A program made the position numbers and the translations under genes. Below the pieces are notes generated by a model. That model did no database searches. It was not told the origin of the DNA and worked only from the letters and a program-made list of their open reading frames with translations. 64,000 bases of DNA from a candidate division WOR-3 bacterium (GTDB lineage Bacteria > Hydrothermota > Tepidihabitantia > SM23-42 > JAOAFX01), in NCBI GenBank assembly GCA_039802205.1, contig JBDRWD010000001.1, positions 13,658 to 77,657 of the forward strand, read 5' to 3'. Positions 31,013-32,993 of this stretch are shown here, piece by piece. Numbering within the stretch: position 1 is the first letter of the stretch; each line of letters begins with the position of its first letter.

Positions 31013-31842
31013 TTTACCTCCTTTTTCAATCAGCTATTCATAGACACTGCTAAATAACTTCCTGCAAGTCGATATTCACCAACCATGGTGTTATATATTG
31101 TATATAATATATTCCAAGGATATTAAGAAAATTATTAAAAAATTACGACATTTTTTCCAAAGTTTAATGTCGGAATTACGTGCCAAGAATTGTTGAAGGA
31201 AACAATCAGCTAAGGAAAAGGGGAGAAGCACAATTTTTACATACAAAAAGACAGTTTTAAAATATCATTTATGTCACTATTCATTCCCTTTACTTCCTCG
31301 ACCGTTAAATCATCCATATTGGCAACATAAAATGTTTTTCCTTTTTGTTACTATCACCATTGGAAATCCGAACCCATGTTTACTCAGTTTGCTATTAAAG
31401 TCTGCAACAGAAATTTTCGGACATTGCCTATGCAAGTAAAAAGAAGGGGGGAGGGTTCGAATTTTAACATTTTACATTTACTATATCTACACTATAGAAT
31501 TCAAAAAAACGCACTTATGAAGTGGGATGAATCTAAATTTTTAAATTCGTTTACAAATCATAATTTCAATATCTAATTTCAACGAATGATTGTTTTAATT
31601 GGAGAAACTACAATAAAGCTCCTCCCATCCATGAGTTCTCTCCACTGCTATAAAAGGCTTGTCAATAATTAAATTCTTACTTTACATCCTCCTTTCTTCA
31701 GATTATAATTTCTTGGTCCGAATCATACCTAACGGTTAAACCAGACTGCTATACGGTCATATAAGACCAAGGTATATATTCGGAGTGGCTGGGCTGCCTA
31801 ATCTTTCTATTAATCATTCAGTGATTAAGTGGAAAGAGAGGC

Positions 31843-32638
31843 TTACCCAGCCATTCTATTCCTCGCCAGACAAGTAGCATAATCAATCTGCTCACGCAAC
31901 ATATAATAAACAATGGTAGCAATCTTTCGCGCCAAAGCTACTTTTGCGATACCCTTGCCTTTCCTTTTTAATATCCGCTGATAATAAAATAATAATTTCC
32001 GATCAATATCACGCGCCCGCAAGGCTGCAGTAGCCACTTCCAAATCGGTCCAGTTTCGTAAAGAATCGTCAAAGCCCAAATATTACCTATACCCGGAACC
32101 TCCAACAGACGCTGAGCATTCTCAGAAAACGGAATCTGTGCGCGGATTTTTCTTTCCCAATAATCAATCTGGGGTGTTAAAAAATCAAAGTCGACAAGTA
32201 ATTGTTTGAGAAATTCACTATAAGGTGGAGATAAAGGCACTCTTTCTAAAGCCTCACGTCCGATTCCTTGTCAGGTATCCAGCAGGTGGCTAAAAAGTTA
32301 GTTCTCAATAGATGAGTAAGTACCCAGGCATCTACTTTATCGGTCTTTACACGGGCATAAGCAATTGCCTTAGTTGGGAGTGGGTTAACCAATGATACAT
32401 CCAGATTGAGTTCTTCTAACAAATCTACCAACCAATACCAATTGCCGGTTGCTTCTACTGCAACTTTACAATTATTTCGGAATGGCTCAAAGAAACTACG
32501 AATAGCTGTCTCATCATTTTCAAGTCGCGTAGATCTTTCCCTCATCTGCTCGTCATAGAGATGAACTTGCAAAAAGTTCTTATGCAAATCAATACCACAA
32601 TAATTCATAAACACTCCTTTCGTTAAAATCATATCCAT
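31843..32638 (-). pseudogene. IS110-family transposase/recombinase, disrupted by frameshifts into three overlapping ORF fragments
   Basis: Fragment 32246-32638 has the DEDD RuvC-like N-domain (YCGIDLHK…VAVEATGNWYWL). Fragment 31968-32240 has the IS110 C-domain motif (LLEVPGIGNIWALTIL). Fragment 31843-32079 has the C-terminal tail (…GKGIAKVALARKIATIVYYMLR…). Total coding length is about 265 aa, shorter than intact IS110 recombinases. Confidence 0.7.
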
Positions 32639-32709
32639 TTTTCTTAAATTGACAAACCTTTTATATTATATCTTTCTGTCAAATCATTTTTATGCGCTGA
32701 ATTATTAGC

Positions 32710-32787
32710 GGTAGCCGCACCCTTCAGGGTGCGAAATACCCTGGGATTTAAAAACATTTATCCGCAGGCTAAAGCCTGCGCCTACCA
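32710..32787. repeat. Cloverleaf-type palindromic intergenic element, copy B, immediately 5' of the IS110 relic
   Basis: Outer stem GGTAG…CTACC. Hairpins CGCACCC-TTCA-GGGTGCG and CGCAGGC-TAA-AGCCTGCG, then CCTACCATTT. Collinear with copy A (ATCGCGGCTTTAAGCCGCTCCTACCATTT versus ATCCGCAGGCTAAAGCCTGCGCCTACCATTT). Confidence 0.5.
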
Positions 32788-32993
32788 TTTTATCGATTAC
32801 CGGACGACCATCTCAGGTTGGCATTTTTTATTTATACAAGGCTAGAGTCTTGCCCTACAAAAATCCCCACGCTAAATCATTGATTACCCTTACAAATCTT
32901 GCTTATGAGTTTTGTCTTTTTATAAAAAATATGGAGAGGACTCAGTGTCGTGCATGCTTGACTTTTGCTCTTCCTAATATATAATTTTGGACA

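What the first reader, a model, noticed from the sequence alone, without database searches (positions are those of the whole stretch)
31013..32993. Decayed IS110-family element with about 1.2 kb of flanking non-coding DNA that could harbour a bridge-RNA-like structured RNA
The recombinase is split by at least two frameshifts and is shorter than intact family members. Both flanks, however, are long non-coding stretches: 31013-31842 (830 bp) and 32639-32993 (355 bp). IS110-family recombinases are known to use a structured non-coding RNA encoded at the element end to specify target and donor DNA. The 5' flank here contains well-formed hairpins (cloverleaf copy B), and the 3' end is spanned by a palindrome (TGGCTGGG…CCCAGCCA). 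Together this gives a possible relic, or an exapted fragment, of such an RNA.
Basis: partly seen in the sequence, partly recalled or inferred. Interest (0 to 1): 0.5.

Follow-up and report, generated by a model that had tools for sequence, protein, structure and literature searches.

The report
Dead IS1111-type element, intact bridge RNA
This is a broken copy of a known kind of jumping gene (IS110 family, IS1111 group) from a WOR-3-like bacterium: its recombinase gene is ruined, but the structured guide ("bridge" or "seek") RNA gene just downstream is complete and still matches the DNA on both sides of the insertion, so it is a real but ordinary example of a system described in 2024.

Summary
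A recombinase pseudogene lies on the minus strand (32608-31843), in three reading frames, with two deletions of about 130 nt each.

The idea that a bridge RNA lies nearby is right, but the location and extent need correcting. Intact 342-aa relatives show the element spans only about 31645-32673. Its left end is short (63 nt) and its right end is long (196 nt), with 17-nt subterminal inverted repeats. That is the IS1111 layout.

The right end encodes a 142-nt structured RNA (31854-31713, minus strand):
- A covariance model built without the window sequence scores it 155.9 bits (E 2e-38).
- All 33 consensus base pairs are kept. Across 15 sequences, 13 pairs show compensatory changes.

The two strands of that stem-loop's internal loop match the right and left flanks. 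They covary with the flanks across independent insertions (0 of 100,000 permutations each).

The rest of the "1.2 kb of non-coding flank" lies outside the element. It holds an aminotransferase gene remnant and an unrelated cloverleaf-like fold.

Verdict: a new member of a known kind (IS1111-type bridge/seek RNA) in a non-autonomous copy. Whether the RNA is still expressed or used is not shown.

The parts
31645..32673 (-). Whole IS1111-type element remnant, about 1.03 kb. Intact relatives are about 1.29 kb. The span includes one inferred 'AG' core at each junction (32673-32672 and 31646-31645).
   Evidence: blastn of intact elements L001-L005 covers 32674 to about 31636. The exact ends are inferred from where the RNA guide matches end and from flank divergence among relatives.
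32609..32671 (-). Left end, 63 nt. Contains the left subterminal inverted repeat TATAAAAGGTTTGTCAA (32665-32649), a TATAAT hexamer (32670-32665), a sigma-70-like promoter TTGTCA (32655-32650) / TATGAT (32633-32628), and the ribosome-binding site.
   Evidence: Left-end alignments, promoter scan scoring 10 of 12, coordinates.
31843..32608 (-). Recombinase pseudogene, with the DEDD/RuvC-like N-terminal domain intact. One deletion of about 133 nt lies near 32264-32278 and removes residues 117-157 of the coiled-coil linker. A second of about 130 nt lies near 32043-32045 and removes residues 238-276, including the GLVP....TS catalytic loop. Each deletion shifts the frame.
   Evidence: The stitched protein scores 135.8 bits, below the NF033542 cut-off of 140; intact P0001 scores 239.
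31713..31854 (-). Bridge/seek RNA gene, 142 nt, overlapping the last four codons of the ORF (ATG GCT GGG TAA).
   Evidence: Covariance model R2, built without the window: 155.9 bits, E 2.2e-38. All 33 consensus pairs kept. Covariation.
31779..31853 (-). Stem-loop 1, the target-binding loop. Second stem GCCT (31842-31839) / AGGC (31799-31796). Apical stem TTAATCA (31828-31822) / TGATTAA (31816-31810).
   Evidence: Helix 1: 13 pairs, 7 with compensatory changes, 99% of cells paired.
31829..31837 (-). 5' strand of the internal loop, UCUUUCCAC. This guide is complementary to the top strand of the right flank, GTGGAGAGA (31645-31637).
   Evidence: 7 of 8 Watson-Crick pairs plus one G.U in the window. 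Across 15 loci a guide matches its own flank at 6.5 of 8 against 3.5 of 8 for other loci's flanks; 0 of 100,000 permutations.
31801..31809 (-). 3' strand of the internal loop, UAGAAAGAU. This guide is identical to the left flank/left-end junction, CAGAAAGAT (32678-32670), so it would pair with the bottom strand.
   Evidence: Own flank 3.8 of 5 against 1.7 of 5 for other loci across 13 loci; 0 of 100,000 permutations. The window matches 4 of 5 variable positions plus AAGAT.
31716..31783 (-). Domain 2, a three-way junction: closing stem CCGAAU/AUUCGG, stem AUACC/GGUAU, hairpins GGUC..GACC and UGG..CC. The single-stranded GUAUAGCAG (31754-31746) is identical to the right-end terminus TATAGCAG (31652-31645). 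This is the inferred donor-binding multiloop.
   Evidence: Helices 3-6. L174 changes both the RNA (AUAGAAG) and its right-end terminus (TATAGAAG). Durrant 2024 notes that IS1111 donor-binding bases sit in a multiloop.
31647..31712 (-). Rest of the right end: a conserved AGGAGG-ATG-TAA block (31693-31680) and the right subterminal inverted repeat TTGACAAGCCTTTTATA (31665-31649), whose TTGACA is a perfect -35 hexamer.
   Evidence: Alignment A2. The repeat is 16 of 17 complementary to the left one. On circularisation, TTGACA + 16 nt + TATAAT would form a junction promoter (inferred).
31637..31646 (-). Right junction: inferred core AG plus right target half TGGAGAGA.
32672..32679 (-). Left junction: left target half ACAGAA plus inferred core AG.

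Best explanation
Window 31645-32673 (minus strand) is a non-autonomous remnant of an IS1111-group insertion sequence of the IS110 family, in a WOR-3-like genome.

How intact relatives work (inferred from the family):
- A 342-aa DEDD/serine-type recombinase is made together with a roughly 142-nt bridge (seek) RNA encoded immediately 3' of it in the long right end.
- The RNA's first stem-loop has a large internal loop. Its 5' strand pairs with the top strand of the core plus right half of the target. Its 3' strand pairs with the bottom strand of the left half plus core.
- The second domain, a three-way junction, carries bases that match the element's own right terminus, which serves as the donor.
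- The excised circle would join TTGACA in the right end to TATAAT in the left end, making a junction promoter.

What the window copy shows:
- The recombinase is dead. Two frameshifting deletions of about 130 nt remove part of the linker and the catalytic loop.
- The RNA gene is complete. The left-end promoter-like site and both subterminal inverted repeats are present.
- Both guide strands still match the DNA on either side. The copy therefore sits where its own RNA would have sent it and cannot move on its own.

Shown here: homology, element limits to within a few nt, RNA structure by covariation, guide-flank covariation, and loss of the catalytic region.
Inferred: the exact core (AG), the role of the second domain in donor binding, the junction promoter, and whether the RNA is still made.
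For: Recombinase:
- Pfam DEDD_Tnp_IS110 hit. The closest proteins are 342 aa, carry PF01548 + PF02371, and include WOR-3 MAG proteins.
- P0001 is NCBIfam NF033542, 'IS110 family RNA-guided transposase', at 239 bits. It matches the IS621 recombinase structure 8wt6 at E 7e-14.
- The deletions are mapped.

Element limits and IS1111 layout:
- blastn to five intact contigs and end alignments.
- Left end 63 nt, right end 196 nt, 17-nt subterminal inverted repeats with 16 of 17 complementary. This matches the definition given in Durrant 2024 (PMC11208160) and Siddiquee 2024 (PMC11187229).

RNA:
- RNAalifold consensus of 33 pairs.
- 96.4% of cells paired and 13 pairs with compensatory change, against 3.4 +/- 1.2 in shuffles (0 of 500) and 0-3 in slid controls.
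- U.G pairs that are invariant or the commonest type fit only the recombinase strand.
- Model R2, built without the window, gives 155.9 bits, inside the 115-163 range of RNAs next to intact recombinases.
- The window keeps 33 of 33 pairs and departs from the consensus at one position.
- The RNA scaffold is 96% identical to L003. The coding part is 86-88% identical and the rest of the right end 78%.

Guides:
- Permutation tests on both strands give 0 of 100,000.
- The same logic holds in a distant multi-copy Acidobacteriota family, where the flanks of 9 copies diverge exactly where the guide matches end.
- The order (top-strand match 5' of bottom-strand match, overlapping at the core) is what Siddiquee 2024 reports for IS1111 seekRNAs.
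- Donor-matching bases in a multiloop are what Durrant 2024 notes for IS1111.
Against: - There are no expression data. Whether the RNA is made from this copy is unknown.
- Rfam 15 gives no hit. It also gives none on the intact relatives, so this is uninformative.
- The window's left flank lacks the inverted copy of the right flank that most relatives show, where the target is a small hairpin. The left side may have been rearranged, or this target was simply not a hairpin.
- I could not find an empty site to fix the ends to the base.
- Only one covarying event (L174) supports the donor-guide assignment.
- Against a 99.4%-identical sister assembly, 5 of the 44 mismatches fall in the 142-nt RNA. 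This argues against strong constraint on this particular copy, or reflects mixing with other copies.
Confidence: 0.88

Rival explanations
1. The copy is not just a fossil. It is a non-autonomous, MITE-like element whose intact RNA and ends are still used in trans by a recombinase made from intact copies elsewhere in the genome, so it can still move or drive rearrangements.
For: - The RNA, both subterminal inverted repeats and the left-end promoter-like site are all intact while the recombinase is wrecked.
- A second, independent derivative (L097) has lost most of the recombinase gene but keeps the RNA (116 bits), both ends, and guides that match its flanks.
- Short-read contigs of the same locus stop inside the element, at window 31688 and about 31915. 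This suggests related copies in the same samples.
- Stand-alone copies of the equivalent small RNA (ssr9 of ISPpu9) are reported in Pseudomonas putida (PMC12288879 abstract).
Against: - No intact copy is present in the 64 kb.
- The nearest intact relative in the databases is only about 88% identical in DNA and has different guides.
- The sister assembly differs at 5 positions within the RNA, including a guide base and a donor-matching base. That looks like drift or copy mixing rather than constraint.
- No expression or mobility data exist.
Confidence: 0.25
2. The RNA has been exapted by the host as a regulatory small RNA, or its stem-loops now act on neighbouring genes, independent of transposition.
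For: The structure is very stable (z = -5.95). It lies in a long intergenic region between divergent genes.
Against: - Every conserved feature is explained by the IS family consensus.
- The locus is seen only in near-identical strains.
- Relatives at about 81-83% protein identity in the neighbouring gene have different gene orders and no such element.
- The guides match only the element's own flanks, with no other match in the window.
Confidence: 0.03
3. The hairpins are ordinary transcription signals (a terminator or attenuator of the recombinase gene) or chance palindromes in AT-rich DNA, not a guide RNA.
For: The first stem-loop spans the stop codon, where terminators often lie. The simple scan reports a terminator-like site on the opposite strand at 31785-31797.
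Against: - No U-tract follows the stem-loop on the recombinase strand.
- The internal-loop bases vary between elements and track the flanking DNA, which a terminator would not do.
- 13 pairs show compensatory changes over two domains. 0 of 200 shuffles fold as well.
Confidence: 0.02
4. The element has the IS110-group (IS621-like) layout, with the RNA encoded upstream of the recombinase in 32639-32993. That would make the cloverleaf-like fold at 32710-32787 the bridge RNA.
For: That region folds well (z = -4.2) and contains two perfect 8-bp hairpins.
Against: - Homology to all intact relatives stops at 32674. Their upstream flanks are unrelated to one another.
- Neither covariance model hits there.
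- A similar motif occurs in L001 about 130 nt 3' of the 16S rRNA gene and about 1.6 kb from that contig's IS copy.
Confidence: 0.02

Closest known systems
IS1111-group insertion sequences with seekRNA / bridge RNA in the right end (ISEc11, ISPa11, ISKpn4, ISPst6; Siddiquee et al. 2024, PMC11187229; Durrant et al. 2024, PMC11208160)
   Same: - DEDD + PF02371 recombinase of 330-350 aa.
- Short left end, long right end, subterminal inverted repeats within the 7-17 bp range.
- RNA immediately 3' of the recombinase gene.
- Top-strand match 5' of the bottom-strand match, overlapping at the core.
- Donor-matching bases in a multiloop.
- Small palindromic or hairpin targets in the relatives.
   Different: - The host lineage is uncultured (WOR-3 and relatives). 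The sequence family has no Rfam hit.
- The catalytic motif in relatives reads GLVP....TS rather than SG/TG.
- The window copy has lost the catalytic loop and part of the linker, so it is not an active member.
- No biochemical data exist for this subfamily.
IS621 / IS110-group bridge RNA (Durrant 2024; Hiraizumi 2024, PDB 8wt6)
   Same: Same recombinase superfamily (P0001 vs 8wt6, E 7e-14). Same principle: one RNA with a two-strand target guide and a donor guide around a short core.
   Different: In IS621 the RNA lies in the left end, upstream of the gene, and both binding sites are simple internal loops. The inverted repeats are only 2-3 bp. Here the RNA is downstream, the donor part is a three-way junction, and the repeats are 17 nt.
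ISPpu9 and its Ssr9 small RNA in Pseudomonas putida (PMC12288879)
   Same: An IS110-family element that inserts into REP palindromes and has a small-RNA gene downstream of the transposase. RNA copies also exist without a transposase.
   Different: A different host and sequence family. I did not compare sequences or structures, so the resemblance rests on the paper's abstract.

Membership tests
IS110 family, IS1111 group | N-terminal DEDD (RuvC-like) domain, PF01548 | tested here: met
   PF01548 at E 1.4e-13 on residues 14-114 of the N-terminal ORF. 88.8% identity to P0001 over residues 1-116.
IS110 family, IS1111 group | C-terminal PF02371 domain with the GL-P----S/T-G catalytic motif | tested here: not met
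   Present in the intact relatives (PF02371; GLVPRTRGTS). In the window, residues 238-276, which contain the motif, are deleted, and Pfam finds no PF02371 on the fragments. The window copy descends from the family but is not a functional member.
IS110 family, IS1111 group | Subterminal inverted repeats of 7-17 bp | tested here: met
   TATAAAAGGTTTGTCAA (32665-32649) and TTGACAAGCCTTTTATA (31665-31649), 16 of 17 complementary, conserved in the relatives.
IS110 family, IS1111 group | Short left end, long right end | tested here: met
   63 nt against 196 nt in the window. The same proportions hold in the relatives.
IS110 family, IS1111 group | Whole-protein score above the curated cut-off of NCBIfam NF033542 (IS110 family RNA-guided transposase) | tested here: not met
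   The stitched window product scores 135.8 bits, below the cut-off of 140. Intact P0001 scores 239.2.
Bridge RNA / seekRNA (IS1111 type) | Conserved structured RNA in the right end, on the recombinase strand | tested here: met
   33 pairs, 13 with compensatory change, 0 of 500 shuffles as high. U.G pairs fix the strand. Model R2 scores 155.9 bits.
Bridge RNA / seekRNA (IS1111 type) | [quoted passage not shown] | tested here: met
   (0 of 100,000 permutations each). In the window, UCUUUCCAC pairs with GTGGAGAGA, and UAGAAAGAU equals CAGAAAGAT. The order is as in Siddiquee 2024.
Bridge RNA / seekRNA (IS1111 type) | Donor-binding guides matching the element's joined ends | tested here: inconclusive
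   GUAUAGCAG in the multiloop equals the right-end terminus, with one covarying case, L174. I could not assign a convincing partner for the left end. The termini vary too little in this set.
Bridge RNA / seekRNA (IS1111 type) | RNA is expressed, binds the recombinase and is required for recombination | not testable with these tools
   There are no transcriptome or biochemical data for this lineage.
Bridge RNA / seekRNA (IS1111 type) | Match to a curated RNA family model (Rfam 15) | tested here: not met
   No hit at gathering score or at E <= 10. The intact relatives get none either. The library appears to have no model that covers this subfamily.

The most novel reading that the evidence does not exclude
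Recombinase-less derivatives that keep a complete bridge RNA, both ends and flank-matched guides (the window copy, and L097) may be a recurrent class of MITE-like elements that carry their own guide. They would be moved, or used for programmed rearrangements, in trans by recombinases from intact copies. In that case the RNA in this window would still be functional rather than a fossil.
Probability: 0.2. Interest if true: 0.55.

Novelty: new member of a known kind. Interest (0 to 1): 0.3.

Why it matters
It shows that a first-pass reading of raw sequence can pick out a genuine bridge RNA.

It adds a well-supported IS1111-type bridge RNA subfamily, with a structure model and guide-target pairs from about a dozen independent insertions. 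The subfamily comes from uncultured lineages (WOR-3 and relatives) that current RNA libraries do not cover.

The guide-flank pairs give a small natural data set on target rules for this subfamily: an 8-9 nt top-strand guide, a 4-5 nt variable part plus a constant part in the bottom-strand guide, and an inferred AG core.

For the window itself, the element is a dead copy and marks a rearranged, decaying intergenic region. It is useful for annotation but not a new mechanism.

Tried and rejected
- Rfam at gathering score on the whole window and at E <= 10 on 30900-33100 gave only three tRNAs elsewhere and noise (fstAT, RT-18, SNORD31 at E 4-10). Rfam on five intact relatives found only a 16S rRNA.
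- A repeat search of the window for a second 'cloverleaf' copy found nothing above chance. Covariance models found only the one locus plus its palindromic antisense echo.
- Search for an empty site:
  - The neighbouring 466-aa protein is found on two other contigs, but both stop inside the element.
  - The 1238-aa neighbour is not on record.
  - Homologues of the 466-aa protein at 81-83% identity sit in different gene orders.
  - The large TPR protein beside one of them is only 23% identical to the window's neighbour.
  - So no empty site was found, and the ends stay inferred to within a few bases.
- Search of the window for further targets of this RNA: 0 matches with up to 3 mismatches. The hairpin motif CCACTTACGAAGTGG, common at relatives' insertion sites, is not enriched (2 matches, 19% of shuffles reach this).
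- I tried by eye to assign the second donor guide, pairing with the left end. I found no convincing register and left it open.
- The weak Rfam-like reading of the region as an Fst antitoxin sRNA was rejected (18.8 bits against a gathering score of 72).
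Full report
**What is at the coordinates**

On the minus strand, three short ORFs (32638-32246, 32240-31968, 32079-31843) together resemble one IS110-family recombinase. Pfam finds the DEDD_Tnp_IS110 domain only in the first (E 1.4e-13). A search with the stitched 261-aa product finds a tight group of 342-aa proteins that carry PF01548 + PF02371. They are 59-64% identical over the full length and up to 84% over aligned columns, and several come from WOR-3 MAGs.

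tblastn of the best relative, P0001, back onto the window recovers residues 1-116, 158-237 and 277-342 in three different frames. blastn of intact elements shows two deletions of about 133 and 130 nt.
- The first deletion removes part of the linker between the domains.
- The second removes the stretch ...RF..AYAGLVPRTRGTSDKY.NGHLCKQANMYLK. This contains the GL-P----S/T motif that Siddiquee et al. describe as the conserved catalytic finger.

The stitched product falls just below the NCBIfam NF033542 cut-off (135.8 against 140). P0001 scores 239 for 'IS110 family RNA-guided transposase' and matches the IS621 recombinase structure. The likely start codon is 32608 (MNYCGIDLHK, with AAGGAG six bases upstream), not 32638.

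**Where the element ends**

I fetched contigs that encode intact relatives. Many are 1.3-1.4 kb contigs that are essentially the element alone.

blastn to the window shows homology from 32674 down to about 31636 and no further. Alignments of the two ends show flanks that are unrelated between loci outside these points.

The left end is 63 nt and the right end 196 nt. Each carries a 17-nt subterminal inverted repeat: TATAAAAGGTTTGTCAA at 32665-32649 and TTGACAAGCCTTTTATA at 31665-31649, 16 of 17 complementary.

Short left end, long right end and long subterminal repeats are exactly how Durrant et al. and Siddiquee et al. separate the IS1111 group from the IS110 group. In the IS1111 group the RNA lies in the right end.

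The part that matters is 31645-31842, 3' of the gene.

**The RNA**

I aligned fifteen non-identical right ends: the window plus 14 relatives whose recombinases are 40-64% identical to the stitched product. RNAalifold gives a two-domain structure of 33 pairs.

Counting on that structure:
- 96.4% of cells are paired.
- 13 pairs have compensatory changes, against 3.4 +/- 1.2 in shuffles (0 of 500 reach it) and 0-3 when partners are slid by 1-3 columns.
- One U.G pair is invariant and two more are the commonest type at their positions. They would be A.C mismatches on the other strand, so the RNA is on the recombinase strand.

Domain 1 (31853-31779) is a long stem-loop.
- Its basal stem, GGCUGGG/CCCAGCC, spans the stop codon.
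- Above it come a GCCU/AGGC stem, a large internal loop and an apical UUAAUCA/UGAUUAA stem.

Domain 2 (31783-31716) is a three-way junction. These are the 'well-formed hairpins'.

A covariance model built without the window sequence (R2) hits 31713-31854 on the minus strand at 155.9 bits, E 2.2e-38. That is within the 115-163-bit range of RNAs that sit next to intact recombinases. The same model gives weaker but significant hits (20-38 bits) directly after the recombinase gene, on the same strand, in many relatives at about 27% identity.

The window RNA keeps all 33 pairs. It differs from the >=85% consensus at a single base, 31776. Its scaffold is 96% identical to L003, against 86-88% for the coding part and 78% for the rest of the right end. 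It is the only copy in the 64 kb. The second hit is the antisense echo of the palindromic stem-loop.

**Evidence that it is a guide RNA**

The two strands of the internal loop in domain 1 are the most variable parts of the RNA, and they track the DNA outside the element.

The 5' strand is complementary to the top strand of the right flank, starting at the last base of ...TATAGCA|G. Examples:

| Locus | 5' loop strand | Right flank |
|---|---|---|
| window | UCUUUCCAC | GTGGAGAGA |
| L092 | AUUUUAUAG | CTATAAAAT |
| L166 | UGCCAUAC | GTATGGCA |
| L087 | ACCCCGCCC | GGGCGGGG |
| L175 | UACUUCCAC | GTGGAAGT |

Over 15 loci a guide pairs with its own flank at 6.5 of 8 positions and with other loci's flanks at 3.5 of 8. 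No permutation out of 100,000 reaches the observed sum.

The 3' strand is identical to the left flank/left-end junction:

| Locus | 3' loop strand | Left junction |
|---|---|---|
| window | UAGAAAGAU | CAGAAAGAT |
| L003 | ACGAAGAU | ACGAAGAT |
| L088 | UUGUAAAGAU | TTGTAAAGAT |
| L007 | UGUCAAGAU | TGTCAAGAT |

Over the five variable positions, own flanks score 3.8 of 5 against 1.7 of 5 for others, again 0 of 100,000.

A top-strand match placed 5' of a bottom-strand match, with the two meeting in the target, is what Siddiquee et al. found for IS1111 seekRNAs.

The same logic holds in a distant multi-copy family from Acidobacteriota genomes. There the flanks of nine copies diverge exactly where the loop matches end, and the target is a REP-like palindrome.

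In domain 2 the single-stranded GUAUAGCAG (31754-31746) equals the right-end terminus TATAGCAG. L174 has changed both to AUAGAAG/TATAGAAG. Durrant et al. note that in many IS1111 elements the donor-binding bases lie in a multiloop. I treat this domain as the donor-binding part. Only one covarying event supports that, and I could not assign the partner of the left end.

**Mechanism, with shown and inferred steps marked**

- Shown: the element's limits to within a few bases, the RNA structure, the guide-flank relationship and the loss of the catalytic region.
- Inferred from the alignments: the core is AG (32673-32672 and 31646-31645), so the original target was ...ACAGAA-AG-TGGAGAGA...
- Inferred from family knowledge: the element excises as a circle.
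- Inferred from the sequence: the circle junction would join TTGACA (31665-31660) to TATAAT (32670-32665) with a 16-nt spacer. That is a near-consensus promoter reading into the recombinase gene and, by read-through, the RNA.
- The left end also has its own conserved promoter-like site, TTGTCA/TATGAT, scoring 10 of 12.

Because both guide strands still match the flanks, this copy sits at the site its own RNA specifies. Because the recombinase lacks its catalytic loop, it cannot move by itself.

**Is the RNA still in use?**

This is open.

In favour of some trans use:
- The RNA, ends and promoter-like site are intact beside a wrecked gene.
- An independent derivative (L097) has lost most of the gene but keeps the RNA (116 bits), both ends and flank-matched guides.
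- Contigs of the same locus in two other assemblies stop inside the element. L178 is 100% identical and ends at 31688. L177 is 99.4% identical and ends near 31915. This suggests related copies in those samples.

Against:
- No intact copy lies in the window.
- The nearest intact relative is about 88% identical in DNA and has different guides.
- 5 of the 44 differences between the window and L177 fall inside the 142-nt RNA, where about 0.8 would be expected. They include one base of the 3' guide and one of GUAUAGCAG. That fits drift, gene conversion or read mixing with other copies better than constraint on this copy.

Nothing supports exaptation by the host.

**The rest of the flanks**

- 31013-31644 is AT-rich (30-32% GC).
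- 31252-31455 (minus strand) is a remnant of the C-terminal 73 residues of a class-V aminotransferase (tblastn E 2e-5). A related genome has that gene two genes upstream of the same neighbour.
- 32674-32993 holds a cloverleaf-like fold at 32710-32787 (z = -4.2) with two perfect 8-bp hairpins. It lies outside the element, and the models do not hit it. A similar GTAGCCGCAGGC...GCGGCTAC motif lies about 130 nt 3' of the 16S rRNA in L001.
- A near-consensus promoter lies in front of the 1238-aa gene.

**Comparison and verdict**

In architecture and logic this is an IS1111-type bridge/seek RNA system as described in 2024. Features met:
- the DEDD domain;
- subterminal repeats;
- the proportions of the two ends;
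- an RNA in the right end;
- a two-strand target guide.

Features not met in the window copy:
- the catalytic C-terminal motif, which is deleted;
- the NCBIfam cut-off, missed by a small margin.

The window copy is therefore a descendant of the family, not an active member.

The subfamily is not covered by Rfam and comes from uncultured lineages. I rate it a new member of a known kind, of modest interest (0.3). The most novel reading that remains open is that such recombinase-less, guide-carrying copies are trans-mobilised elements (probability about 0.2).

Noticed in passing
window 31252-31455 (minus strand): Remnant of the C-terminal ~73 residues of a class-V aminotransferase (34% identity to the L180 protein, E 2e-5). 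It lies in what was called non-coding flank. The rest of the gene is missing, so this intergenic region has lost sequence next to the element.
   Followed up: partly
window 32710-32787 (plus strand); also L001 2288-2350: Cloverleaf-like fold (outer stem GGUAG/CUACC, hairpins CGCACCCUUCAGGGUGCG and CGCAGGCUAAAGCCUGCG; z = -4.2) just outside the element's left end. It is not a tRNA by ARAGORN and has no Rfam hit. A related GTAGCCGCAGGCTTTAGCCTGCG...GCGGCTAC motif lies about 130 nt 3' of the 16S rRNA in another WOR-3 contig. A looser hairpin relative is at window 40730-40747. Function unknown.
   Followed up: partly
window 31681-31709 (plus strand) and 31680-31693 (minus strand): Two conserved blocks in the right end between the RNA and the inverted repeat. 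On the antisense strand they read as a near-consensus promoter (TTTACA, 17 nt, TATAAT; 11 of 12) pointing back into the RNA and recombinase gene. On the sense strand they read as AGGAGG followed by a start-stop pair (ATG/TTG then TAA). Both are conserved across relatives. Their role is unknown.
   Followed up: no
L097 1440-2050: A MITE-like derivative of the same family. Both ends are present. The recombinase gene is cut down to about 366 nt by an internal deletion. The RNA is kept (116 bits) and its guides match both flanks.
   Followed up: partly
L012 1501-1713 and 1929-2072: An N-terminal recombinase fragment (75% identical to the window's) with the bridge RNA on the opposite strand just downstream. 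This is either an inverted or rearranged element, or two abutting copies.
   Followed up: no
L177 (GCA_039802305.1) vs window 31713-31854: The sister assembly is 99.4% identical over 7.3 kb, yet 5 of its 44 mismatches fall in the 142-nt RNA (31807, 31776, 31748, 31731, 31730). Both short-read contigs of this locus end inside the element (31688 and about 31915). This suggests other copies in the samples, gene conversion or read mixing.
   Followed up: partly
left and right flanks of L001, L003, L087, L088, L091, L175, L176, L012: In relatives the insertion sites are small GC-rich hairpins, often CCAC-TTACGAAG-TGG. The element sits between the loop and the 3' arm, so the left flank mirrors the right flank. 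The window's left flank lacks this mirror.
   Followed up: partly
L015, L019-L023, L026 (one Terriglobia genome) and L014, L016: A distant relative of the element (27% identity) is present in at least nine copies per genome. Every copy is inserted in the same REP-like palindrome (GCGTCATTCCGAG...CTCGGAATGA|CGGCG), and its RNA loop strands match that target.
   Followed up: partly
window 32958-32993: A near-consensus promoter (TTGACT, 16 nt, TATAAT) ends only 8 nt before the ATG of the 1238-aa cyclase/TPR gene. Either the mRNA is leaderless or the true start codon is further downstream.
   Followed up: no
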